NCBI GenBank assembly: GCA_045536965.1
Contig: JAZSON010000029.1
Coordinates: 72,052-136,051, forward strand
DNA length: 64,000 nt
Direction: 5' to 3'
From: Eubacteriales bacterium
GTDB taxonomy: Bacteria; Bacillota; Clostridia; Oscillospirales; SIG627
Positions 1-31,615 of this stretch are shown one piece after another; position 1 is the stretch's first letter, and the number at the start of each line of letters is the position of its first letter. A program made the translations under genes and the position numbers. The notes under the pieces were generated by a model. That model was not told the DNA's origin. It saw only the letters and a list, made by a program, of their open reading frames with translations, and ran no database searches.

Positions 1-1
1 C

Positions 2-11354: not shown

Positions 11355-14300
11355 ATGAACACAAACAAACGTATTCTCTCTCTGCTTCTTTCGGTGCTTA
11401 TGCTTCTGTCTTTGCTCCGGCAGGACTGTTTGTATTCGCAGAAGGTGCCATGAATGCAGGAAATACTGTCTATGTCGATCAGACAAACGGCTCTGATGAA
11501 ACAGGCGACGGTACTGAGGCAAAGCCTGTTCAAACCATTGAAAAAGCAGTTGAACTGCTCGAAGCAGGAGATAAAACTGCAGATGGTTACGTTTATCTCT
11601 TAGATGATTACTCCGCCGTTTACAACGGAGAAAAATCCGGCGCCGAAGCCTTGACAAGCGTTTTGCCCGCCCATACCCGCCACATTATTATTACGGGTAA
11701 CGTGGGAAATAAACCCACTTGGGAATTGAGATTTAAACCGTTGATTTACAAGGACTTTTTTACACCTACGGCTAATAGACACGGCGCTGCCAGTTTGTAT
11801 CCTCTTACCAACGGCCCGTCACCTTTGATGCCGTTACGGTTCATTCGACGGTAGATAAGGAAAACTATATCCAATTCCCGACGACGACCACCTATACCAT
11901 TCCGGCAGATCATCCGAATGAAAAATATAGAGCCTATGCCGGTAAAACCATTACCTTTGAAGAAGGTTCCTATCTTTATATAGATTACAACATCACCGAT
12001 AACGGTGACGGCACCCTTACACTCACCCCGAATGGTGATGCGAAATACTATCTCCTGATCAACACTTTGCGTTGGATCCCCAAGGGATATTTCGCCACCA
12101 CCGCGAATAACACTCTCACTTGGGATACTGCGGCTGAAACCGACCGTCAGAACAGTGCTTTCCCGACCACGAAAGGAAATGCAGGTCACTGCCAAGTGGT
12201 TGCTCAAAAATATTTCTATTTTAATGCTCCCACTACCTTGAACGGCACCGGATGGGATTTATGCTACGCTTGCGTAGAGGGTGCAAAAAAAGGTGTTCAA
12301 CCCGAAAGTGAGATCATTCTTACCATCGGTGTAAACTCCGATCTTATCGGCAGATATTTGAATGCTCCCGCCAAAACAGCTCCTGCTTCCACCAAGGTAA
12401 CCTATGTGATCGAGAAACAAGGTTTTAACTGGACGCATACTACCTACAATATTTTTGGTGGCACCAAGACTTCCCCCGAAATCCTTTGTGACTTTGCGGT
12501 TGTTGTCAAAGCATCGGGTGCAAAATTTGCCGGCGGTTTGACAGAATCTTCCACCGCGACAGGCAAAGGTACCTACAATCTTGTGATTGACAATCCCTCG
12601 GTTAACTTCAGTGCCGCCGATCAGCTCATGAGCGGCTTTAACTCTTTGCAGTTTACAAACGTTGGTGAAGGCTTTACCTTCGATAACAGGAACCGTTTCA
12701 TACCTTCTCGACAGCGGCACTGTTGCCTACGCGAAGGGCGATGCCGAAGAAGAAATCGTTCTTCCCGAGAGCGAGACCGTTATTGTCGGCAATTCCATCA
12801 CCCTTGCCGCTCCTGCCACTACCACCCTTGCCGATGGCAAAAAATTTATGGGCTGGATGGATAAAGAGGGCAAACTTTACAAGGCAGGGGATGTTTTCGC
12901 GGTGGATGCAGCCGTTACCTTCACCCTGACCGCTGTTTGGGAACTTTGCATCAGCTTTACCACCGGTTATGAAGAAAGCGGCGTTTTCCAAAGCGACATT
13001 GCTGTCGATTTGGGTGAAAAATTCGCACTACCCAATGATCTTCGCGGCACCATCGTCAACGATGGCAAGTATGATCTTGTGTTCTACGGCTGGAATATTG
13101 GCGGCAAGATCCGTTTTGCCGGCGAAACGCTTACCATGGACGGCGCTGACCTTTCCGCCGAAGCCGTTTGGGTTCCCGCTATCTTCGTGGATGGCACCAA
13201 CGGAAATGATGAAGAGGCAGATGGCACGAGAGCGAAGCCTTACCAAACCCTCAATGCTGCCTATAAAGCGTTGGGTGATCTTCTCAGTGACCGCGGTAAT
13301 ACCGATGCGGCAGGCGCGGTTTATCTGTTAAGCGATGCGGCGTTTGCACCCATCGACGATTCTGTTTATTATCGCGAGTCGTCAAGTGTTGTAGCCCTCC
13401 AATCCCTCAATATGCCGATACTCTTTACCGCCGCGACTGCCAATACGGTATGCGAATTCAAAATGACTACGCAAATTTATATCTACTTCAATAACGATAT
13501 CTTATTTGATAACGTTAGCGTAGCCGTGACCTCCGAGTCCTATCCGAACGATACTAACATTCGTATGTATCCCAGTGGTGATTTGTATTTCGGCTTGCAT
13601 GTAAAAACCGAGCAATTTGTTATTGACTGCAATCAATTGATCGAGTTCTCGGCGGATTGCAAAGTGTATAACGGCACATTTAAACAAATCAACATGGGTG
13701 GCGCATCTTCTGTCCGTACCATGAACTTCAATCTCTATTTCGGTAACGGTACGAAAGAATCCACACCGTTTATTGATCCTGTTTTCCCGAATGGTCAAAA
13801 GAATGTCAACTCTCTCATTAACGCCGAATTCCGCTCCGGCACTGTCAATACTCTCGATATCAGAAAAAGCGGTACCGTTGCTGCCAACGATGATAGAAAA
13901 CTCTCGGGCGATCTGATCTGTAAGATTTACAAAGGTATAACTCTTACTAAAATTACAGACGGTGCTCCGATTTATTGTGAACAAACGTACAACAATAAAC
14001 AATACACCGATACTGAACACATGCATGATATGTCGAGAACGATCATTTTCAATGGATTCTGTGGTTCTGTATACTATGGCCATGGCACAGTGACAGGAAG
14101 TGTTGAGTATGATCATGAACTTCCCAACGGTCTGGATGCTATCGCATTTATCAATGGCGCAAACGTTACCTTTACAAACCATGCTCCCCGTATTGCCGCG
14201 CGTGCAAATGGTATCGGTAATGTTTATGTGGATGCTACCTCCACCTACACCGGAAAGGATATCATCCCCGTTTACTATGACCACGAAAATGAAGTCGAAG

Positions 14301-14785
14301 TTGACGGAACACACCTTTCACCCATTGCAGGTACCCTCCACACTTGGAACGGCACCGAATGGACCACCGATGTTTACGGTGCAGCCCTCGGCGCACAAAG
14401 ACGTACCACCGCTCCTTACGGCATCCGCTTTGGATTTGTCGGTTCTACCGCCACCCTTGAAGCCATGTTCGGACAAAAAGTAACCAAGGGAATTCTCCTG
14501 ATTCCCACCGCTCTTTTGAACGAAACCCTGGAACTTGACACCGAAAATGTTCTCAATGTAGAAGCCAAGGTTTCCTTCAGCTTGAGCCAGCCTAACGTCT
14601 TCACCGCTATGCTGATTGACGATTACGACAATTCTTCCGAAAAATGGCTGGAAACTTGGGAAAATGTAGAATTCACCGCCCGCGCATATTTTGAGCTTGC
14701 CGACGGTACCGTGTTCTACTCCGATTCTATCACAAAGAGCATCGCTTCCATCAACCAAGCATTGACCGAGATGTTGCCCGCCTGA
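11355..14785 (+). pseudogene. Cassette A giant secreted protein, disrupted (three frame breaks; lacks the middle module)
   Basis: AAAGGAG SD and ATG at 11355 encode signal peptide MNTNKRILSLLLSVLMLLSLL. The frame is lost at about 11417-11420, where the paralogs read LLPAG. There is a second shift at about 11815-11821, at the NGP(L)T motif. An out-of-frame internal deletion junction lies at about 12685-12692. The ORF-track pieces 11321-11854, 12067-12864 and 12662-14785 each align to the paralogs in turn. Confidence 0.75.
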
Positions 14786-15096: not shown

Positions 15097-15125
15097 TTGA
15101 CATGGCGATGATTTTGTGATAAACT
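15097..15125 (+). promoter_or_regulatory. Cassette B promoter
   Basis: TTGACA (15097-15102), 17-nt spacer ending TGa, TAAACT (15120-15125). Confidence 0.55.
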
Positions 15126-15182: not shown

Positions 15183-18100
15183 ATGAAAAACACAAACAAG
15201 CGCATTCTCTCTTTTGTGTTGTCTGCTCTTATGCTCATCTCTCTGCTTCCCGCAGGTATGATGGCAGGCGCGTTGGATGCTATGAACGCAACCAATACGA
15301 TCTATGTAGATCAGGCAAAAGGTTCGGATACCAACACAGGTACCGAATCGTCTCCCGTTAAAACCATCGAAAAGGCTGTTGAACTGCTTGAAGCGGGCGA
15401 CAAAACCGCCGATGGTTACATCTACCTCAAAAGTGATTATTCCCAACTGTATGACGGTAGAGGCCAGCGTAACTTTTTAGACATTATGCCCACCCATACC
15501 CGTAATATCATCGTAACGGGTAATGCAAATAAAAAGCCGACCTGGGAAATGATCATTGCTTGCAGTGCGAGCACCTCTGCCGCTTATTTGAAAGAGCGTC
15601 ATTTGGCCGCCTCGGGCTATATTCGCAACAATGGTCCTTTGACCCTTGATGTGGTTAAGGTTAATGTAAAGACCGACCCCAACAACCTCACCACTATTGC
15701 TTTGAAAATGGAATATGAATTCCCTGCAGGTCATGAATTTGCAGGCAAGAAGCTTGCTTTCAAGGGTGGCGATTATCTTTACAAAAAGTATGATCTTGCC
15801 ATCGATCCCAATAACGCTGCGTATGTGATCGATGTTACCGATCGTACCAAAGAAAATGAAGTATATCCCGTCCGTATGAACGATCTGCGTTGGACCACCA
15901 ATGCTAAATTCGTTGCAACCGAAAACTGCGAAGTTACCTACGAAGATCAGGCGGATAATTCTCGTTTGGAGGCGGATATCCCCACCACTTCGAGTCATGT
16001 CAAAGAGATCAACTACATCTATTTCCAACCCTACTCCAATGCCTCCTTGTACGGCGGCTTCTTTGGTGACGGCTGGGTTGTAGGTGCAAGCGCCACCTAT
16101 GATGATGAAGTGATTCTGACTATCGGCAGCAAGGATGCGTTGAAAATCCTCCGCGCTCCCAGTGCAGATGTTCCTGCCACCACCAAGGTTTCCTATGTTT
16201 TCGAAACCCCCGATGTTTTTAACATCCCCTTCTATACCTCCGAGAAAACGAACGCACCTGCCCTGAAATGTGAATTCAGCATGGTTTTGAAAACGACAGG
16301 TGTAACCTATGGTACGGGCGCAAGCGATATTGCCGAGTTGTACACTTCTTATGTAGACGGCTTCGGTACCTACAACATCGTATTTGATAACCCTGCCGAA
16401 ACATTTGACCAGAATCTTTTGTTGCCCGGTTACCATTCCCTTTATTTCAAGGGAATCGGCGGTTCCCTTTCCTTTGATTTTGAATCTCTTCCCCAAGTTG
16501 GTTACAAAGTCATTCGTATCGACGAAGGCGATATTCTCGATCTTCAGGGAACTACCGTTCAAAGAGAATTCATGCTTGACATCGTCAAAGCAGGAAAAAG
16601 CTTTGAAAACGATTCTTTCCCCGTAATTTATGCCGATGATGAATCGGTTCTCGACTTCATCACCCTGACCGAAGAAGCCGAAGCGCTCGGTTCTTTGGTA
16701 TATTCCGAAGATGACTATGCTGTTTACTACACCTTGGATCGCGGCAATGTTGTCTATGAAAAAGGCGATACCGACGAAGATGTTGAAATGCCCGCCGACT
16801 CCGAAACCGTTTTTGCAGGCGAAAACATCATCGTCAGCGCGCCCGTAAATAGCACTCTGGAAAACGGAAAGAAATTCTCCGGTTGGAAAGATGCGAAGGG
16901 CAACATCTATCAGCCCGGCGACAGCTATATGATCAACTCTAACGGCAGTGTAACCCTCACCGCAACTTGGGGCTTCCCCCTCTCGTTTGTGACAGGTTAT
17001 GAAGATGCCGCAACTCCCGTCACCAGAGAAGACATGTTCTTCGTTCCCGGTGACAGAGTGGCACTTCCCAATGATCTCCGCGCTTCCGATGAGGATAAAG
17101 ACGGTGTATACACCCTCAAAACCATCACCGATGGCGGCAAGGACTATGTCTTCTACGGCTGGACCATTGATGGCAAGTTCTATCATGCAGGCGAGACCAT
17201 TAAAACGGGTACTACTGCCATCACCGCAACCGCTGTTTGGATTCCCGCCATCTATGTCAAACCCTCCTATGCGGGCAACGACTCCGACGGTTCCAAAGCC
17301 AAACCCTACAACTCGATTCTGAAAGCACAGATGGCCGTTCGCGCTCTCTTTGGTGCCGATGAAGGAAATGAAATCCCCGCCGCTTCCATCGTTATGATGG
17401 AAAACACCATTTGGAACTGGAGCTACACCGAGACCGTTCCCGGTCATGTCGGTGGTGTTCAAGACGATGGCTATACCTATTATGAAAAGAATAGTGCAAA
17501 CGCCAACCATCCCAAACTGAATACTCTCGGCGGATCGGTTCTTTACACGGCAATTTCCAGCGACATCGAAGTTTTGATGTATCAGTACGAATCCCTGTAC
17601 TTCTACATTGCTGACGACTTCATGCTTGACAACTTGACCTACCTTGTCAGCGCCACCCACTCCATTTCCCGTCTTTACTTCACGACCACGGGCAGAGTCC
17701 TTTATATGGGCCCGACCGTGAAATGCTTGAAGAAAAACAACAATACCCAAAACGTAGATACCTTGTATGGTTTGCCTCTCGGTTCTTACAGCGCAACCGT
17801 TCATCAGCAGTATTCCTACATTCTGTTTGATGTCAACTTACCCGATATCACAGCGCATATCTATGGCGGTGAGTACACAGGTCTTTATATGCTCTATGCC
17901 AACGCAGGTACCAACACCTCTTATATCGGTGCTCCCGGTACTACTGGTCCGACCATTGCATATACCGCTCTCGGTAACACCAACAACCATCCTTCCGCTG
18001 TTTGGGATTACTACCAATATTCGGGCAATGTAAAGGAATTTCGTTTCGGTGTTCTTTCTACCGCTAACAATATTTTCCGTGGTACATGGAATCTCCATTT

Positions 18101-20396
18101 CTATGGCAACGCCAAATTCACCCTCAAAGACTGGAATGCTGCGTATGCAGGCAATGTAACCGATAGAAAAGCCAACCAGCAGACCATCAATCTTTATTTT
18201 GAAGATTGCGATGCCGAAGTGACCACAAACCATCAAAACACACCCCACCAAGCTACAATTGCTACCTCCAAAGGCGCCACCCTCGGCGATGACTATTACA
18301 ATTCTTCTGTCAGCGGTGCCAACACTATCTATTATTACAGTGCAACCAATCCCAGTGGTATTTCCTCTATTTCCTTGAAGAACAGTAATGTCGAATTCGT
18401 TAACCCCTTGTATGTCAGATCTGGCGCAGGCGTCAGCTTCTCGCAGGATGAAAACTCCTCTTATGTCGGTAACATCTACGCTACCAAAGATACCTTTGTC
18501 AAGGGTGAAGGCAATGTTTACACCCCCGTCGAAGTCACCCAAGTGCTTTCGGGCATGGGCGTGAAAGGCCAAGCGATCTCTACTTGCTTTAACGGCGAAA
18601 AATGGGTAAGAACCTATGCCTTTAACTATGAAACGGGCTATGATAGCGTGAAAATCGATGGCTCCTTCGGCGGCTTTGCAGGCAACCGTATCGTTCTGTC
18701 CGATGCACTTCGCGGCCAAGTAGTCACCGATGCAGGCAAAGAACTCACCTTCTTCGGTTGGAATATCGATGGCAAATTCTACGATGCAGGCGACGGCTAT
18801 GTGCTGGGTGAATCCGATGCAACTGCCACGGCAGTTTGGGTTCCCGCCATCTTCGTGGATCCCACCTATGCAGGCGGCAACTCCGATGGTTCCAAAGCAA
18901 AACCCTTCGTGAAAGTTGCAGATGCGTATGCAGCCCTGAAAACCCTCCTTGCTTCTTCGGATGCTGTGGGCGGCGCTGTATATCTCCTTTCCGATGCTGT
19001 GATGGATGCAGAACCCGACACCTCTTTTGCTCCTGTTTCCAACATTCCCAGCCTCGAGGATGCAGGTAAACCCGTTCTCTTTACCGCAGCGAATAAAACC
19101 ATTAAGTTCACCACCGATAACGAAAGCTACTCCAACACTCTCCATTTCCTCGGTTCTGTGATGTTTGATAACCTCACCCTCCGTGTGAAGGGTACCACCT
19201 TTATCAGACTTACGCCCGCCAAGGACGCTTACTTTGGCCCGAATTTTGCTTTTGAACAACCCAGCGGTTACAGAGTCGTTTATCTGGATGGTCAAAACCA
19301 AAATGTTGAAGAAGTAACCTACAAAATTTATAACGGCACCTTCTCTCTCGTTTGCTTTGGTTCCAACTTTACCAAAACCACCTATGCCAAGCAAAACGTC
19401 TATGTGGGTACAGGTGAATCTACCTCTGCTCCCACAGTGTCCAACCTCTTTGCAAACACGATTGCCACATTCGTCAATGCAAAAGTTGAATTGCGTTCGG
19501 GCACCGTGACCAACGCCATCCTCGGCACAAACTACGGCAACGCTGCTTACAGCAATGCACAGCCTTTCGGCGAATGGATTTACGTTGTCTACAACGGCAT
19601 GAACATCGGCAACATCCGCGATGCTTATTCCGATGGCGCAAATCAAATCCCCGCAACGACAACTTATTGCGCTAACCTTACGAGAACCCTGATCTTCGAT
19701 GGTTACAAAGGCAACATTGCATATAACCACTTTGCCAATACCAACGAAACCGTTGTCAACGGTATCAATAACGTTTCCTTTATAGGTGGCGCACAAGTCA
19801 ACTTTACAACTAACGATGTAGTTGTTACCTCCGGCTCTGTCTACGTCGAAGAAGGCTCTTCCTACACCGGCAAAGCCATCAAAGGCAGCTGCATCCATGA
19901 AGGAAACGAAGTGCAGGTTGCTTTGACTCCCGCAAATGGACTCAACACTTGGAACAGCGATAAGGATCACACCTGGACCACCGATGTTTACGGTGCAGCC
20001 CTCGGCGCACAGATCCGTGTCGAAGCTCCTTACGGTATTCGTTTCGGCTTCAATGGTTCCACCACCGCTCTCGAAGCTATGCTCGGCCAAGCCGTTGCTG
20101 AAAAAGGCGTCCTGATCATCCGTGATTCCATGTTGGATGGCGCTTTGACCCTTGACACCGAAAACGTTTTGAAGATTGTCGCAAACAAAGCATACAGCTT
20201 GACCCAGTCTGCTGTCTTCACAGGCGTTTTGGTCGACACCCCCGATGCCGGCGCTTCTTCCAAAGCATGGCTGGAAACCTGGAAAGATGTTGATTTCACC
20301 GCCCGCGCTTACTTCAAACTGGCCGATGGCAGTGTGATCTACTCTAACAGCGATACCAACAGCATTGCGGCTATTTCCGCTTCGTTGGTCGGCTGA
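15183..20396 (+). CDS. Giant secreted multi-module protein (1737 aa): signal peptide, three beta-helix-cap modules separated by InlB-B/Flg_new-like repeats, conserved C-terminal domain
   Basis: AGGAGG SD and signal peptide MKNTNKRILSFVLSALMLISLLPAG. The motif YV(D/K)...G(S/N)D..GS...P(V/Y/F)K(T/S) recurs three times, at about 15298, 17241 and 18841. (F/Y)(Y/F/S)GW..(D/N)GK.Y..G......(T/A)ATA(V/T)W repeats are present. The ORF is uninterrupted. Confidence 0.9.
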   Translation: MKNTNKRILSFVLSALMLISLLPAGMMAGALDAMNATNTIYVDQAKGSDTNTGTESSPVKTIEKAVELLEAGDKTADGYIYLKSDYSQLYDGRGQRNFLDIMPTHTRNIIVTGNANKKPTWEMIIACSASTSAAYLKERHLAASGYIRNNGPLTLDVVKVNVKTDPNNLTTIALKMEYEFPAGHEFAGKKLAFKGGDYLYKKYDLAIDPNNAAYVIDVTDRTKENEVYPVRMNDLRWTTNAKFVATENCEVTYEDQADNSRLEADIPTTSSHVKEINYIYFQPYSNASLYGGFFGDGWVVGASATYDDEVILTIGSKDALKILRAPSADVPATTKVSYVFETPDVFNIPFYTSEKTNAPALKCEFSMVLKTTGVTYGTGASDIAELYTSYVDGFGTYNIVFDNPAETFDQNLLLPGYHSLYFKGIGGSLSFDFESLPQVGYKVIRIDEGDILDLQGTTVQREFMLDIVKAGKSFENDSFPVIYADDESVLDFITLTEEAEALGSLVYSEDDYAVYYTLDRGNVVYEKGDTDEDVEMPADSETVFAGENIIVSAPVNSTLENGKKFSGWKDAKGNIYQPGDSYMINSNGSVTLTATWGFPLSFVTGYEDAATPVTREDMFFVPGDRVALPNDLRASDEDKDGVYTLKTITDGGKDYVFYGWTIDGKFYHAGETIKTGTTAITATAVWIPAIYVKPSYAGNDSDGSKAKPYNSILKAQMAVRALFGADEGNEIPAASIVMMENTIWNWSYTETVPGHVGGVQDDGYTYYEKNSANANHPKLNTLGGSVLYTAISSDIEVLMYQYESLYFYIADDFMLDNLTYLVSATHSISRLYFTTTGRVLYMGPTVKCLKKNNNTQNVDTLYGLPLGSYSATVHQQYSYILFDVNLPDITAHIYGGEYTGLYMLYANAGTNTSYIGAPGTTGPTIAYTALGNTNNHPSAVWDYYQYSGNVKEFRFGVLSTANNIFRGTWNLHFYGNAKFTLKDWNAAYAGNVTDRKANQQTINLYFEDCDAEVTTNHQNTPHQATIATSKGATLGDDYYNSSVSGANTIYYYSATNPSGISSISLKNSNVEFVNPLYVRSGAGVSFSQDENSSYVGNIYATKDTFVKGEGNVYTPVEVTQVLSGMGVKGQAISTCFNGEKWVRTYAFNYETGYDSVKIDGSFGGFAGNRIVLSDALRGQVVTDAGKELTFFGWNIDGKFYDAGDGYVLGESDATATAVWVPAIFVDPTYAGGNSDGSKAKPFVKVADAYAALKTLLASSDAVGGAVYLLSDAVMDAEPDTSFAPVSNIPSLEDAGKPVLFTAANKTIKFTTDNESYSNTLHFLGSVMFDNLTLRVKGTTFIRLTPAKDAYFGPNFAFEQPSGYRVVYLDGQNQNVEEVTYKIYNGTFSLVCFGSNFTKTTYAKQNVYVGTGESTSAPTVSNLFANTIATFVNAKVELRSGTVTNAILGTNYGNAAYSNAQPFGEWIYVVYNGMNIGNIRDAYSDGANQIPATTTYCANLTRTLIFDGYKGNIAYNHFANTNETVVNGINNVSFIGGAQVNFTTNDVVVTSGSVYVEEGSSYTGKAIKGSCIHEGNEVQVALTPANGLNTWNSDKDHTWTTDVYGAALGAQIRVEAPYGIRFGFNGSTTALEAMLGQAVAEKGVLIIRDSMLDGALTLDTENVLKIVANKAYSLTQSAVFTGVLVDTPDAGASSKAWLETWKDVDFTARAYFKLADGSVIYSNSDTNSIAAISASLVG

Positions 20397-20411
20397 TAGG
20401 GAGGAGAAATC

Positions 20412-20531
20412 ATGAAAAACGTGTATGAATCTCCCGTAATGATTTCTCTGGAATTTTCGGAAGAAATCATGTCCATCAGTTTCGGTGATAACTATGGTTC
20501 GCTTCTTCCCGGTTGGGGAGAACCAAACTAA
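20412..20531 (+). CDS. Conserved 39-aa acidic small ORF, copy 2 (MKNVYESPVMISLEFSEEIMSISFGDNYGSLLPGWGEPN)
   Basis: GGGAGGAG SD. The ATG lies 15 nt after the TGA-TAG double stop of the giant gene. A terminator follows 17 nt downstream. Confidence 0.75.
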   Translation: MKNVYESPVMISLEFSEEIMSISFGDNYGSLLPGWGEPN

Positions 20532-20548
20532 ACCAAACCTAAAAGCCG

Positions 20549-20585
20549 TGAGGCGCACTTAGTTAAAAGTGCGCCTCATTTTTTT
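20549..20585 (+). terminator. Rho-independent terminator of cassette B
   Basis: Arms tgaggcgcac/gtgcgcctca followed by a 7-T run. Confidence 0.85.
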
Positions 20586-20810: not shown

Positions 20811-20869
20811 TTACTTGGTATATTATAAATTATATGATGATATTACCAAAATTTTTAGGAGGATTTAAG

Positions 20870-23800
20870 ATGAAACACACAAACATGCGCATTCTCTCAT
20901 TTGTGTTGTCTGCTCTCATGCTTCTTTCTTTGCTTCCTGCGGGTATTCTTGCGGGTGCAGCCGATGCCATGAATGCAGAAAACACCATCTATGTGGATCA
21001 GGCCAAAGGCTCTGATGCTAATGATGGCTCCAAATCCAATCCCGTGAAAACCGTCGTAAAGGCTGTTGAACTGCTCGAGGCAGGCGACGTGACCGCCGAT
21101 GGTTACATCTATCTTGTCGGTGATTACACCGCTCGATATGTAGGTAAAAACCTTGCGGGAACTGCGTTTGGTTCCGTTATCGATTATCTCCCCGTGCACA
21201 CCCGTCATATCATTGTGACCGGTGACCCTTCCGACAAACCGACCTGGACTCTCCAGATTGCAGTTCCGGCGGGTTCGGGTTACCCCGATCGTCATGCACC
21301 GGGTTCTGCCTATTTGCGCACCAACGGACCTTTGACCTTAGATGCGATTGCGGTGTATGTTACAAATGATAAAACCAATCTCACCGTGTTTCCCCAAGAT
21401 CTTGAATACTCTATTACCGGCGGTACATTCGCGGGTAAAAAATTCAAGCTCAAAGCCGGTGAATATCTTTATAAGATCTATGATTTTGCCGAGGATCCTC
21501 AAAACAGCGGTTATGTAATCGATGTTACCGACCGTTCGTCCGATCCCGAAAAACAAATTAAATTCCCCGTGCGTATCAATGACTTCCGCTGGATTATCAA
21601 TGGTACTTTTACCAGTACGGCGAATTTCTCCTTGAGTTATGACAACGCGATCGATCCCGATCGTGCTGCTGCTACTTTGGTGACCAATACCACCGATAAC
21701 AGCAAAAATATCACTCAGATCTATACCATCCCGTTTGCCTCTGCCTCGTTTTACGGTGGCAACTGGGGTAGCTTGATGGTTTATTCCACCTCGTCTTACG
21801 GCGCTTCCTATTCCACCGATGATCTTGTTGTGACCATTGGTGAAAAATCGGGTATTGGTTCTGTTTATTATCCCAACAGCACCGTTCCCGCAACCGTTAA
21901 AAAGGTGACCTATGTCATCGAAGAAGCAGGCAGAAAGATCAGCAATCCTTTTTACCTCGCTACCACTGAACCTATCATCAACTGTGACTTTTATTTGCAC
22001 ATCAAAGCTTCCGGTGTGATTATGGGGGCTGGCGGTTTGACCGAAAAGTCTTATATTTCGGGCAAAGGAACCTACAATCTTATCATCGAAAATCCCGGTG
22101 AAAATTTTGACTCGTCCCTCTTGCTCTCGGGCTATCATTCCCTCTATTTCAAGGGAATCGGTGGCGCCCTTTCCATGGATTTTGAATCTCTTCCCGCAGT
22201 CGGTTACGAAATTATTCGTATCGATGAAGGCGATACCTTGGATTTGCAGGGCACCGTTTTAGAAAATAAATTCATCCTTGACATTGTCAAGGCAGGTGAA
22301 AACTTTGAAAATGACTCTTTTGAAGTCATTTATGCCGACGATGAATCTGTTCTCGACTTTATCACCCTCACCGAAGAAGCCGATGCGCTCGGATCTTTGG
22401 TATATTCCGAAGATGACTATGCCGTTTACTACACCTTGGATCGCGGCAATGTTGTCTATGAAAAAGGCGATACCGAGGACGAAATCAAAATGCCCGAAGC
22501 CTCCGAAACCGTTTTGGGCGGCGAAACCATTGTTTTAGGTGCGCCCGCCAAGACTGTTCTTGAAAATGGCAAGAAGTTCTCCGGCTGGAAAGATGAATTG
22601 GGCAGAATTTATCAAGCAGGCGATACCTTTACCATCAAAGTCAACGGCACCGAAACCCTGACCGCAACCTGGGGTATTTCCATGTCCTTTGTTACAGGTT
22701 ATGAGTCGGCAGGTGTTGTCAGACAAGATTTGTTCTATGTTCCCGGCGAAAGAGTAACACTTCCCTCCGATCTTCGTGCAGATGATCAGGATGGCGACGG
22801 TGTCTCCACCTTGAAGATCGTCACCGACGGCGGTAAGGACTATGTGTTCTACGGTTGGACCATCGATGGTAAGTTTTACCATGCGGGCGAGACCATCCAA
22901 ACCTCCGATACCCTCATCACCGCAACCGCTGTTTGGGTTCCCGCCATTTATGTCAAACCCACCTACGCAGGCGGCGATTCGGACGGTTCTAAGGCAAAAC
23001 CTTATACCTCCATTTTGGCAGCCCAAATTGCCATGAACAAGCTTTTTGGTGAAACCACCGAAGAGGATGTTCCGGGCGGCTCCATTGTTATGCTTGAAGA
23101 TACTGTTTGGAGCTTTAGCTATTTGCAAAACATCGGCGACACCCCCAACCCCGGCTATGTTGGCGGCGCGCAAGCCGATGGAAATGTCTATTATACCAAT
23201 ACCGGTGCTCAGGTTCTCATGAAGGCGCTCAAGAGAAATGTTCTTTACACGGCCATTTCCAATGATGTAAGAGTTCTGTTCTACCAGTATGAAGCAATTT
23301 ATTTCTACTCTGAAGGCGATTTCTTCATCGATAACCTTTCCTACTTCACCCGTTGCTATCATTCCATTCCGCGTTTGTATCTCCAATCACCCAATAAAGT
23401 TCTTTATATTGGTCCGACTGTCAAGACCGCATCGAGTTCTTCCGCTGCATCCTTTACAGCCGATGATTATCTCTATGCAACCCATTCCTCCGATGCTGTG
23501 AATACAGGCAAAGCCCCTGTTTATTCCAAATTCTTGTTTGATATGAATAAAGCGGGTTCTACCGCTTACATTCTCGGTGGTGAGCACGTCGGTCTTTACG
23601 GTGTTTACGGTACCAGTGGTGTTTATACCTCCTACATTGGCGCTCCCAATACCGATGGCCCGACACTTGATTACATCGCACTCGGTAACACAAACTCCAA
23701 GACAACCACCGATACTTGGAACTATTACCAGTATTCGGGCAATGTGAAAGAAATCCGTTTTGGTGCTCTTTCTAACTACGACTATATGTTCCGCGGTACT

Positions 23801-26113
23801 TGGAATCTTCATTTCTATGGAAATGCAAACATCAAACTTGATGATGCTGTAGCTAGCTATTATGGCAATACGTCCACAAGAAATCCCAACGCACAGATCA
23901 TCAACCTCTTCTTTGAAGATTGCAAGGCTACGGTAACGACCCTGCATGATAACTTGCCCCACCAAGCTACAATCGCTACCTCCAACGGCGCAACCCTCGG
24001 CGACGATTATTATAAATCGGTTGTCAGTGGCAATAACACCATCTATTATTACGACGCTACTGTTCCGAGTGGTGTAAATTCGATTTCCTTGAAGAACAGC
24101 CAGGTCAATTTCTCCACCCCCTTGTATGTCAAGTCGGGCGCAGATGTTACCTATGCTCAGGATGAAAAATCTTCCTATACCGGTAGTATCTACGCCACCA
24201 AAGACACCTTTGTCAGGGGTGAAGGCAATCGTTATACCGCTGTTGAAGTCACCGATGTCCTTGCAGGCATGGGTGTCGAAGGAAAAGTCATTACTGCTTG
24301 CTTTGATGGTGATAAGTGGAAGCAATCCTTCAGCATGAGCTATCAAACCGGTTATGACTCTGTTAAATTTGATGTCACCGCAGGCGGTCTTGCAGGTACT
24401 CGTCTGGTATTGTCCGATGCACTCCGTGGCCAAGTGGTTACTGATGCAGGCAAAGAACTGACCTTCTACGGTTGGAATATCAATGGCAAGTTCTACGATG
24501 CGGGCGATGCTTATGTACTGGGTGAATCCGATGTCATTGCCGCGGCAGTTTGGGTTCCCGCCATCTTTGTCGATCCCGCTTATGCTGGCGGCGATTCCGA
24601 TGGTAGCCGAACCAAACCTTTCGTAAGCGCTTTGGATGCCTATGCAGCTGCTGTTGCCGCTGAAGGTGATGCCATCGCAGTTGTTCTTCTCGCAAATGCC
24701 ACTATGACGCAAACCGCAGAATCTTCCTTTGACATGGTAGGCACAGCAACGGGCTTTGCCGATGCAGGCAAGAGAGTGCTTCTTACCGCTGTTTCAAGCG
24801 ATATCACTTTGACGATTGACAGCGGCAGCAGCTCCTCTTATGTCAGAATTTTCAACTCTATTATGTTTGATAACCTGACTCTCCATGCGACTACTTCTTC
24901 GGCGGCCTACATCCGACTTCTTCCCGCCAAGGATATTTACTTTGGCCCGAACTTTATTTTCGCCCAACCCACCGGCTTGAAGTATTTCGGTCTCGATGGT
25001 ATGTATCAGGAAGCTTCGGAAGTGATCTATAAGATCTACAACGGCGCCGTCAACTTTGTTTACCTCGGTACTTCCATTGTTTCTACCGAACAAACCAAGG
25101 CCAATGCATTGATTGGTACAGGCGAAGAAACTTCTAAGCCTGAAATCGACCTTGTATCCGTCAATACACTTTCGGCTGTCGTTTCTGCCAAGGTTGATTT
25201 CCGTTCGGGTATAATTAAGAGAGGAATGTTAGGTGCCACCAAGGGTGGTGCGGGCGATACCTCTTACGCCACCAAGCAACCTTCGGGCGATTTCATCTTC
25301 ACCGTTTATAGCGGTGTAACCGAATTGTGTCTTATGGATTCCTGGACAGGCGTCAACCCCGGACTTTCCTCTTATTGCGCCAACCTTTCCAGAACCCTTG
25401 TTTTTGACGGTTATGTCGGCAATGTTAAATACATCCACTACAGTGCAGCAAATGGTATTTTTGCAAACGGTATCGATAACATTGCGTTTATCAATGGTGC
25501 AAAAGTTAACTTTACCAACAATGATGTAGTCGTAGCCGCCCGTGCAAACGGTGTTGGCAGTGTCTATGTCGAAAGCGGTTCTTCTTACAGTGGTAAGGTC
25601 ATCAAAGGTGCCTACATCAACGAAAGTGCCGAAGCTTTTGTCGACTTTACCCCCGTTGTCGGTAAGATCAACGCGTTCAATGGTACTGCATGGACAACCG
25701 ATACTTACGGTGCAGCCCTCGGCGCACAGATCCGCGTAGAAGCCCCCTATGGTATCCGCTTTGGCTTTGTCGGTTCTAACGCCGCCCTCGAAGCTATGCT
25801 CGGTCAGGCTGTTGTCGAAAAAGGTGTGTTGGTTATCCGCAGCTCGCTGTTGGAAGGCAAACTCACTCTTGATACAGAAAATGTTCTCAAGATCGTTGCT
25901 GAAAAAGCCCATTCCTTGAAACAATACAACTGCTTCAACGGTGTTTTGGTCGATACTGCCGACGCAGGTGCTTCTTCGGAAGCTTGGTTGGAAGCATGGG
26001 AGAATGTTGACTTTACCGCTTGCGCCTACTTTACGTTGGCCGACGGCACTGTTCTTTACTCCAATAGCACCCAAAACAACATCGCAGGTGTATACGCTTC
26101 GCTGGTCGGTTGA
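20870..26113 (+). CDS. Giant secreted multi-module protein (1747 aa), paralog of 15183-20396
   Basis: AGGAGG at 20857-20862, then the ATG at 20870, gives signal peptide MKHTNMRILSFVLSALMLLSLLPAG. The ORF-track start at 20801 lies inside the promoter. The module order matches cassette B. Confidence 0.9.
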   Translation: MKHTNMRILSFVLSALMLLSLLPAGILAGAADAMNAENTIYVDQAKGSDANDGSKSNPVKTVVKAVELLEAGDVTADGYIYLVGDYTARYVGKNLAGTAFGSVIDYLPVHTRHIIVTGDPSDKPTWTLQIAVPAGSGYPDRHAPGSAYLRTNGPLTLDAIAVYVTNDKTNLTVFPQDLEYSITGGTFAGKKFKLKAGEYLYKIYDFAEDPQNSGYVIDVTDRSSDPEKQIKFPVRINDFRWIINGTFTSTANFSLSYDNAIDPDRAAATLVTNTTDNSKNITQIYTIPFASASFYGGNWGSLMVYSTSSYGASYSTDDLVVTIGEKSGIGSVYYPNSTVPATVKKVTYVIEEAGRKISNPFYLATTEPIINCDFYLHIKASGVIMGAGGLTEKSYISGKGTYNLIIENPGENFDSSLLLSGYHSLYFKGIGGALSMDFESLPAVGYEIIRIDEGDTLDLQGTVLENKFILDIVKAGENFENDSFEVIYADDESVLDFITLTEEADALGSLVYSEDDYAVYYTLDRGNVVYEKGDTEDEIKMPEASETVLGGETIVLGAPAKTVLENGKKFSGWKDELGRIYQAGDTFTIKVNGTETLTATWGISMSFVTGYESAGVVRQDLFYVPGERVTLPSDLRADDQDGDGVSTLKIVTDGGKDYVFYGWTIDGKFYHAGETIQTSDTLITATAVWVPAIYVKPTYAGGDSDGSKAKPYTSILAAQIAMNKLFGETTEEDVPGGSIVMLEDTVWSFSYLQNIGDTPNPGYVGGAQADGNVYYTNTGAQVLMKALKRNVLYTAISNDVRVLFYQYEAIYFYSEGDFFIDNLSYFTRCYHSIPRLYLQSPNKVLYIGPTVKTASSSSAASFTADDYLYATHSSDAVNTGKAPVYSKFLFDMNKAGSTAYILGGEHVGLYGVYGTSGVYTSYIGAPNTDGPTLDYIALGNTNSKTTTDTWNYYQYSGNVKEIRFGALSNYDYMFRGTWNLHFYGNANIKLDDAVASYYGNTSTRNPNAQIINLFFEDCKATVTTLHDNLPHQATIATSNGATLGDDYYKSVVSGNNTIYYYDATVPSGVNSISLKNSQVNFSTPLYVKSGADVTYAQDEKSSYTGSIYATKDTFVRGEGNRYTAVEVTDVLAGMGVEGKVITACFDGDKWKQSFSMSYQTGYDSVKFDVTAGGLAGTRLVLSDALRGQVVTDAGKELTFYGWNINGKFYDAGDAYVLGESDVIAAAVWVPAIFVDPAYAGGDSDGSRTKPFVSALDAYAAAVAAEGDAIAVVLLANATMTQTAESSFDMVGTATGFADAGKRVLLTAVSSDITLTIDSGSSSSYVRIFNSIMFDNLTLHATTSSAAYIRLLPAKDIYFGPNFIFAQPTGLKYFGLDGMYQEASEVIYKIYNGAVNFVYLGTSIVSTEQTKANALIGTGEETSKPEIDLVSVNTLSAVVSAKVDFRSGIIKRGMLGATKGGAGDTSYATKQPSGDFIFTVYSGVTELCLMDSWTGVNPGLSSYCANLSRTLVFDGYVGNVKYIHYSAANGIFANGIDNIAFINGAKVNFTNNDVVVAARANGVGSVYVESGSSYSGKVIKGAYINESAEAFVDFTPVVGKINAFNGTAWTTDTYGAALGAQIRVEAPYGIRFGFVGSNAALEAMLGQAVVEKGVLVIRSSLLEGKLTLDTENVLKIVAEKAHSLKQYNCFNGVLVDTADAGASSEAWLEAWENVDFTACAYFTLADGTVLYSNSTQNNIAGVYASLVG

Positions 26114-26128
26114 TAGGGAGGAGAAATC

Positions 26129-29400: not shown

Positions 29401-31615
29401 ATGTATTTTGAAAACTTCAACGGCACGATTTACACCACCCATGTCAACCCTGAAATTCGCATCACCTCCGCAGCTTATGGAGATGCCTACTATAAATTGG
29501 TAAGTGGCACCTATTACTATTCTGCTATTTCTCCCAACGCGATTGATTCCGCCACATTCGTCAATAGTAATGTTACCTTCACGGGTAGCGGCCTGAATCT
29601 CCGTGCGGGCGCAGAAGTGACCTATCGTCAGGATGAAACCTCGGTAGTAACAGGTACCATCGTCGCGACCAAAGATATTTTCAAAGAAGATGAAAATACC
29701 CCCAACAAATTCAATCCCGTCACGGTAGCTCTTCCCGATTTTTCTGGTGCTGTTTCCTATACCTTCAACGGTTCTGCATGGAAACAGACGATGTCTGTGA
29801 ACTATGTAACAGGTTATGATCAAATCAAGGTCACCCAGTCAACCGAAGGTATGGCGGGTTCTCAGATTGCTCTGTCCGATGAACTTCGCGGACAAACCGT
29901 CACTGTCGGCGGACAAGAAATGACTTTCTATGGTTGGATGATCAACGGCAAGTTCTATGATGCAGGCGATTTGGCAGAAATGTCTGAATCGGGTTTGACT
30001 GCCACCGCTGTTTGGGTACCCGTTATCTTTGTTGACGGCGTATCGGGCAACGATGAAACTGCAGACGGCACCAAAACCCTTTAAGACTGTAAACCTTGCT
30101 CACAAGGCGCTCGGTGATTTGTTGGATGCCCGCGGTAATACCGATGTAGCAGGTTCGATTCTTCTTCTCGATGATACTACTGTGACACCCGCGGATGGAA
30201 CCAATTTTAAAAACTCAGGTTCTTCCGATGTTGTACTTGCAGCTTTGGGTGTTCCCGTTCTCTTCACCGCAGAAGATCCCGACACCCTCCTCGTTTTCAA
30301 TACCTTGGCAAGAATTCAAATGCTGTTACTTGATTCTACCCTCTTTGACAACATTTCTGTTGCGGTTGCAACCGATTATGCAACTGATCCCACCCTTTAT
30401 GTTCGTGTCTATCCCTCCAAAGATTTTTATTTTGGTCCGATGGTAAAAACCCCTGTTCTTGGTGATGGTTCTACCCACGATACATGGCTCTTGGATGGTG
30501 ATAATGTAGCTCTCAATTCGGTTGATTATAAGATCTATAACGGCGATTTTGAGTATATTATGCTGGGCGATTCCTCTTCTACCCAAGCCAAAGTTGTCAA
30601 TCTGCATTTCGGTAATGGTACCGTCGATTCCAAACCTTATGCAAAACAACTGTACACAACGGGTCTGTCCAATGTTAATAGTGTGATCACCGCCCAATTC
30701 CGTTCGGGCACTGTTTACGACTTGCGTTTGGGCAAAGCTTCCAACAAAGTTGGTAAGATTTTCTCGGGCGACTTGATTTACAGAGTATATAGTGGTGTGT
30801 CAATCAATCAAATTGTTGACTATACCACCAATGCTCTCGGTGACAAAGACTTCTTTGGTAATATGGCGAGAACCCTCGTTTTCGATGGTTATGTCGGCTC
30901 TATCAAATATGTTCACGGTCCTGCCGATGCAGCTGTTAACGGTGATAATGGCGGTATTCCCAATGGTTTGGATGCCATCGCATTTTTAAACGGCGCCAAC
31001 GTTACCTTCACCGAAAATGCTGTTCGTGTAGTATCCCGCTCCAATGGTTTTGGTAATGTCTATGTAGACGAAACCTCCTCTTTCGGTGGTCTTGGTATTG
31101 TTGGTTCTTACTATGACACCGATTTGCAAAAACAGGTCAATGGTTCCGCTTTGGAAGCAACTTCGGGTACTCTCTACACTTGGCATGGTTCGGGCTGGAT
31201 GACCGACATCTACGGCAAGTCGCTGGGTGCTCAGGTTCGTGTGGAAGCTCCCTATGGTATCCGTTTTGGCTTCATGGGTTCTACCGCCGCACTCGAAGCC
31301 ATGGTTGGTCAAAAGGTTACAGAAAAAGGCGTGCTGATTATCCGCAGCTCTCTCTTGGCCGGCGATTTGACTCTCGAAACCGAAAACTCCCTCAAGATTG
31401 TTGCGAATAAAGCCTTTAGCTTAACCCACCCCAACCTCTTCACGGGTGTTTTAGTTGATACCGCCGATGCTTCTGCTTCTTCCGAAGCTTGGTTGCAAGA
31501 ATGGAAGAATGTTAACTTCACCGCTCGTGCATACTTTACTCTTGCGGATGGTTCTGTGATTTACACTGATACCGACACAACTACTATCCAAGATGTATTG
31601 AATGCCCTTAACTAA
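26431..31615 (+). pseudogene. Cassette D giant secreted protein, disrupted by an in-frame TAG and one frameshift
   Basis: AGGAGG SD and an intact signal peptide. TAG at 27058-27060 replaces the Tyr codon seen in paralogs (YLYKKYD / YLYKIYD versus PL*KEYD), and the same frame continues. A frameshift at about 30070-30080 falls inside the conserved ADGT..KP(Y/F) cap motif. No sORF follows. Confidence 0.75.

What the first reader, a model, noticed from the sequence alone, without database searches (positions are those of the whole stretch)
15183..20396. Internal triplication: three [InlB-B/Flg_new-like repeat, beta-helix cap, long beta-rich region] modules in one polypeptide
Within B, the motif (I/A)I(Y/F)V(D/K)(Q/P)..(G/A)G.(S/N)D..(G)(S/T)...P(V/Y/F)K.. 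appears three times, at about nt 15298, 17241 and 18841. This is the usual N-terminal cap of DUF1565/pectate-lyase-like right-handed beta-helices. The second and third copies each directly follow a repeat ending ...ATAVW(I/V)PAI(Y/F)V, of the type (Y/F)(V/T)F(Y/F)GW.(I)DGKFY.AG. The repeats lie at about 16867-16972, 17146-17241 and 18742-18840. C and D have the same order. A lacks the middle module. All four end in a conserved ~140-aa domain (W.TD.YG..LGAQ.R...PYGIRFGF.GS...LEAM.GQ...KG.L.I...). Three stacked beta-helix-like units on one secreted protein is an unusual architecture.
Basis: partly seen in the sequence, partly recalled or inferred. Interest (0 to 1): 0.55.

Follow-up and report, generated by a model that had tools for sequence, protein, structure and literature searches.

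The report
Modular secreted beta-solenoid protein family
Gene B encodes a rare 1737-residue secreted protein of an uncultured-type Clostridiales bacterium, built from all-beta (probably solenoid) modules separated by small InlB-type spacer domains; the architecture is real and almost unannotated, but it is a duplication plus one distantly related first module, not a clean triplication, and its function is unknown.

Summary
The cap motif occurs three times in B, at aa 40, 690 and 1223. The three FxGW...TAxW repeats are also there. C and D have the same order, A lacks the middle module, and all four end in the same ~140-aa domain.

- The layout is SP-M1-Ra-Rb-M2-Rc-M3-CT.
- M2 and M3 are full-length paralogues (hhalign E 5e-33). 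M1 shares only its first ~140-160 residues with M3 (90.7% probability).
- So this is an internal duplication of an [R-M] cassette behind a distinct first module.
- The R domains are Flg_new/InlB B-repeat-type: TM 0.55-0.61 to PDB 2y5p, and the three significant profile-search hits all carry Flg_new.
- M3 models confidently as all-beta. Its best fold matches are beta-helix proteins, but they are weak (TM <=0.37). A solenoid is likely but not proven, and M1 is unresolved.
- No Pfam or PDB sequence relative exists for M or CT.

The M module is rare: about 20 cluster representatives among 1.84 billion. The CT domain occurs in about 100 other secreted proteins, always near a terminus.

Five family genes lie within 32 kb. 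Two are decayed. The most likely role is a diversifying surface or extracellular binding protein. An enzyme role is not excluded.

The parts
15097..15125 (+). Promoter-like site upstream of B (TTGACA-17-TAAACT, with TG extension)
   Evidence: Consensus scan, 10 of 12 matches. This is a pattern match only.
15183..15272 (+). Sec-type signal peptide (aa 1-30, MKNTNKRILSFVLSALMLISLLPAGMMAGA)
   Evidence: Read directly from the translation: basic n-region, hydrophobic core, AGA/LDA cleavage-like site. Conserved 70-83% in C and P0003. No predictor was run, so this is an inference.
15273..16742 (+). M1 (aa 31-520): cap motif plus a ~490-aa region. Only its first ~140-160 aa are related to M3.
   Evidence: Sub-threshold hits: DUF1565 positions 2-29 at E 6e-4, NCBIfam LIC10774 at E 5e-8 over 36 aa, and PHROG 16653 'hydrolase' at E 2.6e-9 over aa 4-144. 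AF2 gives pLDDT below 50 for the first ~250 residues and 65-90 after that.
16743..16973 (+). Ra (aa 521-597): Flg_new/InlB B-repeat-type domain
   Evidence: Alignment A2; hhalign Ra~Rb 95%; R HMM E 4e-22; modelled at pLDDT ~77-87.
16974..17240 (+). Rb (aa 598-686): Flg_new/InlB B-repeat-type domain with a 12-aa acidic insertion, directly preceding the M2 cap
   Evidence: Rb~Rc is 41.5% identical, blastp E 1.5e-14; hhalign 99.5%. The model containing Ra and Rb hits InlB B repeat 2y5p at TM 0.55-0.61 and SHIRT 7avh at E 1e-4.
17241..18614 (+). M2 (aa 687-1144): cap plus all-beta body, a paralogue of M3 with ~80 extra residues in loops
   Evidence: hhalign M2~M3 gives 99.9%, E 5e-33, over 335 columns; alignment A1. 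The M2 modules of B, C, D and P0003 form their own clade.
18615..18839 (+). Rc (aa 1145-1219): Flg_new/InlB B-repeat-type domain, directly preceding the M3 cap
   Evidence: This is the most conserved segment between paralogues: 76% to C and 81% to P0003.
18840..19967 (+). M3 (aa 1220-1595): cap strand, one helix, then ~27 short strands; probably a beta-solenoid
   Evidence: AF2 gives pLDDT mostly 75-95 and pTM 0.76. The best Foldseek hits are beta-helix proteins, but they are weak. Invariant in 17 modules: D1329, G1352, D1480, F1505, H1516, S1559 and G1586. Near-invariant glycines lie at 1352, 1385, 1409, 1440 and 1463.
19968..20396 (+). CT (aa 1596-1737) plus the stop codon: conserved terminal domain (GAQIR..APYGIRFGF...KGVLII...ARAYF.LADG.VIYS)
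   Evidence: Present in A, B, C and D. Found in ~100 further cluster representatives, near the N-terminus in 32 and near the C-terminus in 23 of 60 outside the family. No Pfam match and no PDB sequence relative. AF2 confidence is low, 40-60.
20548..20579 (+). Terminator-like hairpin after B (13-bp stem, T-run)
   Evidence: A near-identical hairpin follows C at 26265-26296.
11355..14785 (+). Paralogue A: SP-M1-R-R-M-CT, no M2, disrupted by at least 3 frameshifts
   Evidence: The same architecture is intact in Clostridiales bacterium UBA5448 (L001, 1205 aa).
20867..26113 (+). Paralogue C: same architecture as B, 58% identical, intact
   Evidence: The start at 20867 is inferred from homology to B and D and from the promoter-like site at 20782-20810.
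26431..31615 (+). Paralogue D: same architecture, with an in-frame TAG at 27058-27060 and a frameshift near 30050
1..2986 (+). 3' part of a fifth family gene (P0011, 1587 aa: SP-R-M-CT followed by Beta_helix PF13229 regions and DUF4957)
   Evidence: The window ORF equals the last 994 aa of P0011; domains.

Best explanation
B is a Sec-secreted, multi-domain extracellular protein with the order SP-M1-Ra-Rb-M2-Rc-M3-CT.

How it was built (shown). The unit of construction is a cassette [R-M]. R is a ~75-aa beta-grasp-like Flg_new/InlB B-repeat domain. M is a ~380-460-aa all-beta module that opens with a 'IYVD..G.D..DG(S/T)...P(F/Y)' cap strand and helix. Relatives carry one cassette (SP-R-M-CT), two cassettes (R-M-R-M-CT), or M1-R-R-M-CT. 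B, C, D and P0003 arose by an old internal duplication of the cassette behind a distinct first module, M1. The whole gene, with its own promoter and terminator, then duplicated in tandem.

How it works (inferred). The M modules are most likely rigid beta-solenoids that present long, fast-evolving surfaces. The small R domains act as conserved spacers or joints. The CT domain is a terminal module shared with many other secreted Clostridia proteins, and it attaches or targets the protein, perhaps to the cell wall or to a polymer. Together this gives a beads-on-a-rod surface or extracellular binding protein, adhesin-like and probably glycan-directed. The family is undergoing birth-and-death diversification.
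For: Architecture and homology:
-. M2~M3 gives E 5e-33 and Rb~Rc gives 99.5%.
- Cassette number varies from 1 to 2, with or without M1, across relatives.
- The M2 modules form a separate clade, so the duplication predates the B/C/D split.

R domain identity.

M3 fold:
- All-beta model with pTM 0.76.
- Long alignments to beta-helix proteins top both Foldseek lists: Pme8A, IgA1 protease, HxuA, SRRP, tailspikes and 'pectate lyase superfamily' proteins.
- Near-invariant glycines spaced 23-33 residues apart.
- The N-terminal two-thirds of M is homologous (E 1e-17 to 1e-7) to modules of other proteins whose sequences are, by eye, visibly glycine-rich and repetitive.

Secretion without a known anchor: signal peptide, no LPXTG, no SLH, CWB or LysM in Pfam.

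CT: it lies near a terminus in 55 of 60 other proteins, and none of those has an LPXTG motif or a hydrophobic tail. It co-occurs with Big_2, Flg_new and peptidoglycan hydrolase domains.

Binder rather than enzyme:
- The M bodies are the least conserved parts (48-58% amino-acid identity B vs C; 45-60% nucleotide identity).
- The R, CT and junction segments are the most conserved (73-91%).
- Two of the five local copies are decayed.

Independent transcription units.
Against: - No significant structural match for M: PDB best E 0.5 with TM <=0.34. BFVD gave one unnamed hit at E 2e-4 with TM 0.20.
- Model coordinates could not be inspected, so handedness, rung count and even the solenoid topology are unverified.
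- A crude coil-motif shuffle test was not significant.
- M1's first 250 residues are unmodelled.
- No binding or anchoring function was tested for any domain.
- Invariant Asp, Asp, His and Ser residues in all 17 M modules would also fit a catalytic site.
- Two relatives fuse R-M-CT to enzyme-like PbH1 beta-helix regions.
Confidence: 0.55

Rival explanations
1. B is a multi-headed carbohydrate-active enzyme. Each M module would be a catalytic beta-helix (lyase, hydrolase or esterase) of an undescribed family. The R domains would be linkers and CT a carbohydrate-binding module. B would then carry two or three active sites on one chain.
For: - The cap is typical of pectate-lyase-fold enzymes: DUF1565 and Pel9A-like N-termini at E ~4e-4 to 6e-4.
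- M1 aa 4-144 matches a phage family labelled 'hydrolase' at E 2.6e-9.
- D1329, D1480, H1516 and S1559 are invariant in 17 divergent modules. D1480 and H1516 sit at the same register at the end of the second strand of two consecutive strand-turn-strand units, so they could be adjacent.
- P0011 and P0012 fuse R-M-CT to Beta_helix and DUF4957 regions.
- Two CE15 esterase genes lie 7 kb away.
Against: - No Pfam, NCBIfam or PDB sequence match beyond the cap.
- No profile similarity to the PbH1 domain of P0011.
- The M bodies are the fastest-evolving parts of the paralogues, which is unusual for catalytic domains.
- Only four polar residues are invariant, and two of them are ~150 residues apart.
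Confidence: 0.27
2. The M modules are not beta-helices. They would be some other all-beta arrangement, for example strings of sandwich or hairpin-repeat subdomains. In that case the resemblance to beta-helix proteins is limited to a shared ~30-residue N-terminal motif.
For: - Foldseek TM-scores are only 0.2-0.37, with E >= 0.5 against solved structures.
- Several predicted strand pairs are joined by 2-residue turns, which could be antiparallel hairpins.
- The coil-motif test was not significant.
- There is no PbH1 signal.
Against: - Nearly all long (>300-column) top alignments in both libraries are to beta-helix or solenoid proteins.
- The cap is followed by a single helix and then ~27 short strands with no other helices.
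- There is a glycine ladder with a 23-33-residue spacing.
- M is homologous to modules that, by eye, show a ~22-24-residue repeat.
- Foldseek is known to score repetitive solenoids poorly (my own knowledge, not tested here).
Confidence: 0.13
3. The array is a remnant of a prophage or tailocin tail-fibre or tailspike cluster.
For: There are weak BFVD hits to tailspike and tail-fibre models and PHROG hits for M1.
Against: - tblastn of M1 and of M3+CT found no match in 50,697 phage genomes.
- The proteins carry Sec signal peptides.
- The neighbours are housekeeping genes, with no phage genes within the 64 kb.
- Each copy has its own promoter and terminator.
Confidence: 0.03

Closest known systems
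Flg_new / Listeria-Bacteroides repeat (PF09479, TIGR02543), prototype the InlB B repeat (PDB 2y5p)
   Same: The R domains have the same length (~70-75 aa core), the same F-x-G-W and C-terminal T-A-x-W signature, and the same beta-grasp-like fold in the model (TM 0.55-0.61, 22-25% identity). A profile search hits only Flg_new proteins. As in other Gram-positive surface proteins, they occur as single or tandem spacers.
   Different: They score below Pfam's gathering cut-off when scanned singly (best E 3e-4). Rb carries a 12-residue acidic insertion. Here each repeat is welded directly onto the cap strand of the next module ('TAVW-VPAI-FVD'). I did not find that junction described in the literature.
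DUF1565 (PF07602) / Pel9A-like and other pectate-lyase-fold right-handed beta-helix proteins
   Same: The N-terminal cap motif 'hYVd..G.D.n.Gt...P..ti..A' is shared. The body is all-beta, and its best, though weak, structural neighbours are beta-helix proteins.
   Different: Only positions ~2-30 (DUF1565) or ~6-44 (Pel9A-like) of these profiles match. There are no PbH1 repeats, no profile similarity to a PbH1 domain and no solved relative by sequence. No catalytic residues of any known PL or GH family could be identified.
Beta-solenoid adhesins and passenger domains (L. reuteri SRRP binding region 5ny0, HxuA 4i84, IgA1 protease or Hap passenger)
   Same: These are long secreted beta-solenoids used as binding rods. 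They appear among the top Foldseek hits. They offer a plausible working analogy for a variable binding surface on a rigid rod.
   Different: The matches are not significant (E 0.8-1.1, TM <=0.31). The secretion routes differ (autotransporter, TPS or aSec versus plain Sec here). None of them has several solenoids separated by Flg_new domains.
Other multi-cap proteins found here (P0017, P0025, P0030, P0033, P0037, P0070)
   Same: They are large SP-bearing proteins with two to four modules. Each of these modules aligns to the N-terminal ~230-330 positions of the M profile at E 1e-17 to 1e-5. They show that serial stacking of such modules recurs.
   Different: Their bodies are visibly glycine-rich ~22-24-residue repeats, judged by eye from the sequences. 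They have no R domains between modules and no M-type C-terminal third. Most lack CT, and some end in a membrane anchor. They too lack any Pfam annotation for these modules.

Membership tests
Flg_new / InlB B-repeat (PF09479, PF18998) | Match to the Pfam model at or above the gathering score | tested here: not met
   Scanned singly, 4 of 17 repeats match Flg_new (best E 3.2e-4) and 4 of 17 match Flg_new_2 (best E 4e-3). In whole proteins the only hit is D2 at 14.7 bits against a cut-off of 23.6.
Flg_new / InlB B-repeat (PF09479, PF18998) | Profile-level homology to bona fide Flg_new domains | tested here: met
   The profile of 17 repeats found 3 hits at E<=1e-3 in 5.8e9 proteins. All three are annotated PF09479, and two are named TIGR02543 family. 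hhalign against P0122 gives 95.4%, E 1.7e-8, over 69 of 75 columns.
Flg_new / InlB B-repeat (PF09479, PF18998) | Beta-grasp-like fold of the InlB B repeat | tested here: met
   The AF2 model (R domains at pLDDT ~77-87) aligns to 2y5p chains at TM 0.55-0.61, rmsd 3.8-4.2 A, probability 0.77-0.97. It also aligns to InlB 36-392 (E 7e-4) and to SHIRT 7avh (E 1e-4). The fold description comes from PMC8900821.
DUF1565 / pectate-lyase-fold right-handed beta-helix | N-terminal cap motif | tested here: inconclusive
   Sub-threshold matches confined to profile positions 2-30: E 6e-4 (B M1), 4e-3 (D1) and 0.11 (C). Pel9A-like best E is 3.6e-4. Only 3 of 16 caps match each family.
DUF1565 / pectate-lyase-fold right-handed beta-helix | Full-length match, or PbH1 repeats (Beta_helix PF13229) | tested here: not met
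   No such hit in B, C or the fragments of A and D at E<=1. hhalign of M and of M1 against the PbH1 region of P0011/P0012 gives 0.1%.
DUF1565 / pectate-lyase-fold right-handed beta-helix | Three-stranded right-handed parallel beta-helix fold | tested here: inconclusive
   The M3 model is all-beta with pTM 0.76. The top Foldseek hits are beta-helix proteins, but with E >=0.5 and TM 0.24-0.34 in PDB, and TM <=0.37 in BFVD. M1 is unmodelled.
LIC10774/LIC10365 surface protein family (NF047854) | Equivalog score of at least 380 bits over the 358-position model | tested here: not met
   32.3 bits over 36 residues, covering the cap only.
Sortase-anchored (LPXTG) or SLH/CWB2/LysM-anchored Gram-positive surface proteins | C-terminal LPXTG motif with a hydrophobic tail, or a known wall-binding domain | tested here: not met
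   No LPXTG in B and no such Pfam domain. None of 60 other CT-bearing proteins has an LPXTG motif or a hydrophobic tail.
Known CAZy-type catalytic beta-helix families (PL1/3/9, GH28, CE8) | Family-specific catalytic residues in a recognisable family alignment | not testable with these tools
   No alignable relative was found, and no CAZy/dbCAN library was available. The invariant D1329, D1480, H1516 and S1559 are noted but cannot be mapped to any known site.

The most novel reading that the evidence does not exclude
The M module may be a previously undescribed beta-solenoid family. Its invariant Asp-His pair on adjacent rungs (D1480 and H1516), with invariant S1559, could form an active site. 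B and C would then be two-headed extracellular enzymes of a new class. Separately, the ~140-aa CT domain could be a new non-covalent cell-surface attachment module. It lies near a terminus in 55 of 60 CT-bearing secreted proteins outside this family, has no Pfam or PDB relative, and occurs in proteins that never carry LPXTG.
Probability: 0.15. Interest if true: 0.65.

Novelty: new variant of a known kind. Interest (0 to 1): 0.4.

Why it matters
Large secreted proteins of gut or rumen-type Clostridia are mostly unannotated. This family shows two things.

First, it gives a clean example of growth by duplication of a [beta-grasp spacer + all-beta module] cassette. Copy number ranges from one to two cassettes plus an optional first module. 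Tandem gene birth and death is visible in one 32-kb stretch.

Second, it exposes two domains that no curated library covers:
- the M module, present in about 20 cluster representatives among 1.84 billion;
- a much commoner terminal CT domain.

Defining CT alone would annotate about a hundred further surface proteins. If M binds or cleaves a specific polymer, the divergent paralogues would be a natural specificity series.

Tried and rejected
- **Chance recurrence of the motif.** Rejected: 3 observed against 0.002 expected.
- **Equal triplication.** Rejected by blastp and hhalign.
- **Sequence relatives with solved structures.** None found for R (the InlB sequence was not recovered; best hit TibA at E 0.1), for M+CT, for CT or for the left-edge gene.
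- **Coil periodicity in M by a strand-Gly-strand motif against shuffles.** Not significant: M3 had 4 against 1.6 expected, with 146 of 2000 shuffles reaching that count; M1 and M2 showed no excess.
- **M related to PbH1 beta-helix domains.** No signal.
- **Phage origin.** No tblastn hit in phage genomes.
- **Organism identification.** Exact-protein look-ups all failed. The species-representative genome scan found only one relative, Clostridiales bacterium UBA5448.
- **More M1 relatives.** An indexed profile search returned only the window's own fragments.
- **Literature.** No paper was found combining Flg_new with beta-helix modules.
- **CT fold.** The CT structure was too poorly predicted (pLDDT 40-60) to assign a fold.
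Full report
**1. Setting**

The window is chromosomal DNA of a spore-forming Firmicute. Neighbouring genes include GerA, a class I tRNA synthetase, transketolase, LemA/DUF2207 and two CE15 glucuronoyl esterases. No phage or plasmid genes were seen.

Between 11.3 and 31.6 kb lie four tandem + strand paralogues:
- A, 11355-14785
- B, 15183-20396
- C, 20867-26113
- D, 26431-31615

B and C are intact. A has at least three frameshifts. D has an in-frame TAG at 27058-27060 and one frameshift near 30050.

Each copy has a promoter-like site upstream and a strong hairpin terminator downstream. The hairpins after B and C are nearly identical.

The ORF cut by the left edge of the window is the last 994 residues of a fifth family member, P0011.

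**2. The observation**

The cap motif is at aa 40, 690 and 1223 of B. A loose regular expression finds it three times, against 0.002 expected per shuffled sequence.

These are Ra (aa 521-597), Rb (598-686) and Rc (1145-1219).

C and D have the same order. A lacks the middle module. All four end in the same ~140-residue domain.

**3. Anatomy of B**

The order is SP (1-30), M1 (31-520), Ra, Rb, M2 (687-1144), Rc, M3 (1220-1595), CT (1596-1737).

Within B:
- Rb~Rc is 41.5% identical (E 1.5e-14).
- M2~M3 is 27.5% identical over the first 160 residues (E 4e-11).
- M1 gives nothing significant against M2 or M3.

With family profiles:

| Pair | hhalign probability | E-value | Columns |
|---|---|---|---|
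| M2~M3 | 99.9% | 5e-33 | 335 (essentially end to end) |
| M1~M3 | 90.7% | 1e-6 | 137 (N-terminal columns only) |
| M1~M2 | 3% | 0.014 | 33 (cap only) |
| Rb~Rc | 99.5% | 2.9e-22 | 74 |
| Ra~Rb | 95% | 2.3e-8 | 55 |
| Ra~Rc | 88% | 3e-6 | 51 |

The protein is thus a duplicated [R-M] cassette behind a first module. That first module shares only its cap and probably its first rungs with the others. It is not a triplication of equal units.

**4. How the architecture arose**

Relatives carry different numbers of cassettes:

| Protein | Architecture |
|---|---|
| P0010 | SP-R-M-CT |
| P0011 | SP-R-M-CT, then Beta_helix regions and DUF4957 |
| P0005 | R-M-R-M-CT |
| L001 (Clostridiales bacterium UBA5448) and the decayed A | SP-M1-R-R-M-CT |
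| B, C, D | M1-R-R-M-R-M-CT |
| P0003 | M1-R-R-M-R-R-M-CT |

In a neighbour-joining tree of 17 M modules, the M2 copies of B, C, D and P0003 form their own clade. The M3 copies group with the modules of single-cassette proteins. The internal duplication is therefore older than the tandem gene duplications.

Identity between paralogues is mosaic:
- The first 150 nt are 88-97% identical.
- The end of M1 is 91% identical between B and C.
- Rc is 84% identical and the start of CT is 72-79%.
- The M bodies are only 45-60% identical at nucleotide level.
- B's M3 is closer to P0003's (74% amino-acid identity) than to C's (48%). The opposite holds for M1.

This pattern points to recombination between family members.

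**5. The R domains**

- Singly they fall below Pfam's cut-off: Flg_new best E 3e-4 and Flg_new_2 best E 4e-3, each in 4 of 17 copies.
- A profile of all 17 copies retrieves three proteins at E<=1e-3 from 5.8 billion. All three are annotated PF09479.
- The profile aligns to one of these over the whole domain at 95.4%.
- The AF2 model containing Ra and Rb matches the isolated InlB B repeat (2y5p) at TM 0.55-0.61. It also matches InlB 36-392 and SHIRT domains at E 1e-4 to 7e-4.
- The B repeat is a beta-grasp-like fold (PMC8900821).

Formal membership by Pfam's own threshold is not met.

**6. The M modules**

No curated model covers them:
- Pfam finds nothing for B at E<=1, and only sub-threshold cap matches elsewhere (DUF1565 positions 2-30, Pel9A-like).
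- NCBIfam matches 36 residues of a Leptospira surface-protein model.
- The M profile has no relative among PDB sequences.

An exhaustive HMMER search of 1.84 billion representatives found 119 proteins at E<=1e-3. Only about 20 of them carry M-like sequence. The rest match CT alone.

AF2 on an 11-row alignment gave a confident model for M3:
- pLDDT is mostly 75-95 and pTM is 0.76.
- The model has a short strand, one helix, then about 27 short strands and no further long helices.

Foldseek found no significant solved neighbour (best E 0.5). However, the long alignments at the top are to beta-helix proteins: pectin methylesterase, IgA1 protease, HxuA, SRRP and tailspikes, at TM 0.24-0.34. In the viral library the named top hits are likewise tailspike, pectate-lyase-superfamily and right-handed beta-helix entries.

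Further points:
- Near-invariant glycines are spaced 23-33 residues apart.
- The N-terminal two-thirds of M is homologous to modules in other proteins that, by eye, look glycine-rich and repetitive.
- A crude motif-periodicity test was not significant.
- There is no similarity to a PbH1 domain.

I rate a beta-solenoid fold for M2 and M3 at about 0.8. Membership of the pectate-lyase-type family is unproven.

M1's first 250 residues were modelled at pLDDT below 50. Apart from its cap region, which matches DUF1565 and a PHROG labelled 'hydrolase' at E 2.6e-9, its fold is open.

**7. The CT domain**

CT is conserved in all family members. It also occurs in about 100 other cluster representatives.

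Among 60 such proteins outside the family:
- It lies just after the signal peptide in 32 and at the C-terminus in 23.
- 53 have a signal-peptide-like start.
- None has an LPXTG motif or a hydrophobic tail.

Partner domains include Big_2/Big-like, Flg_new, a glucosaminidase-amidase-SH3 wall hydrolase, an Exo_endo_phos nuclease and a transglutaminase core.

No Pfam model and no PDB sequence matches it. Its model here was poor. A terminal targeting or attachment role is an inference from position and company only.

**8. Function**

Shown:
- B has a signal-peptide-like N-terminus (read by eye; no predictor was run) and carries no recognised anchor.
- It is modular.
- The family diversifies fastest in the M bodies.
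- The family undergoes gene birth and decay.

Inferred: B is a rod-like extracellular binding protein. Its solenoid surfaces provide specificity, the R domains act as joints, and CT localises the protein.

The main rival is a multi-headed polysaccharide-active enzyme. It is supported by three points:
- the enzyme-type cap;
- invariant Asp, Asp, His and Ser residues in all 17 modules, with D1480 and H1516 in the same register on consecutive strand-turn-strand units;
- fusion of R-M-CT to PbH1 beta-helix regions in P0011 and P0012.

It is weakened by the absence of any family match and by the M bodies being the least conserved parts. A phage origin is very unlikely.

**9. Novelty and verdict**

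The parts belong to known kinds: Flg_new spacers, a cap-initiated all-beta (probably solenoid) module, and a Sec-secreted Gram-positive giant protein. The M module and the CT domain themselves are uncatalogued.

The [R-M] cassette with the repeat fused directly onto the next cap was not found described. Serial stacking of cap-initiated modules also occurs in other unannotated proteins, so the architecture is rare rather than unique.

Verdict:
- This is a new variant of a known kind, of moderate interest.

Noticed in passing
window 1-2986 (+): The ORF cut by the window's left edge is the last 994 aa of P0011 (1587 aa). P0011 is a fifth family member in which SP-R-M-CT is followed by PbH1-type Beta_helix regions (PF13229) and DUF4957. 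CT is internal there, not terminal.
   Followed up: partly
window 11355-14785 and 26431-31615 (+): Paralogue A has frameshifts near 11415, 11810 and 12680. Paralogue D has an in-frame TAG at 27058-27060 and a frameshift near 30050. B and C are intact. These are likely pseudogenes, although assembly errors cannot be excluded. NCBI annotates the fragments as separate proteins (P0004, P0006, P0007, P0125).
   Followed up: partly
window 20548-20579 and 26265-26296 (+): Nearly identical 13-bp-stem terminator hairpins follow B and C. Others follow A (14943-14975) and D (31640-31668). The tandem duplication therefore included the regulatory flanks.
   Followed up: no
window 20782-20867 (+): The longest ORF of C starts at 20801 and NCBI's call (P0002) starts at 20837. 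A strong promoter-like site (TTGACA-17-TAAAAT) ends at 20810, and homology to B and D puts the real start at the ATG of 'MKHTNMRILS' at 20867.
   Followed up: partly
window 15183-31615; P0003: Identity between family members is mosaic. B's M3 is 74% identical to P0003's but 48% to C's, while B's M1 is 56% to C's and 42% to P0003's. Junction segments reach 84-97% nucleotide identity while module bodies are 45-60%. This suggests module exchange or gene conversion between copies.
   Followed up: partly
window 19968-20393 (CT); proteins P0020-P0121: The ~140-aa CT domain is shared with about 100 otherwise unrelated secreted proteins. It lies near a terminus in 55 of 60 outside the family, never occurs with an LPXTG motif, and once occurs with a glucosaminidase/amidase/SH3 wall hydrolase. 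No Pfam model or PDB sequence relative exists, so it is a candidate for a new domain family.
   Followed up: partly
B aa 1329, 1480, 1516, 1559 (nt 19167, 19620, 19728, 19857): Asp, Asp, His and Ser are invariant in all 17 aligned M modules from 13 proteins. D1480 and H1516 occupy the same position at the end of consecutive strand-turn-strand units in the model. It is unexplained whether this is structural or catalytic.
   Followed up: partly
window 38580-40823 (-): Two tandem paralogous genes (369 aa each) match the fungal-type glucuronoyl esterase (CE15) Pfam model. This hints that the organism degrades lignocellulose or glucuronoxylan.
   Followed up: no
proteins P0017, P0025, P0030, P0033, P0037, P0070 (not in the window): These are large unannotated secreted proteins with two to four cap-initiated, glycine-rich solenoid-like modules distantly related to M. 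Some are combined with a Peptidase_M14 domain or a C-terminal membrane anchor. They form a wider uncatalogued superfamily.
   Followed up: no
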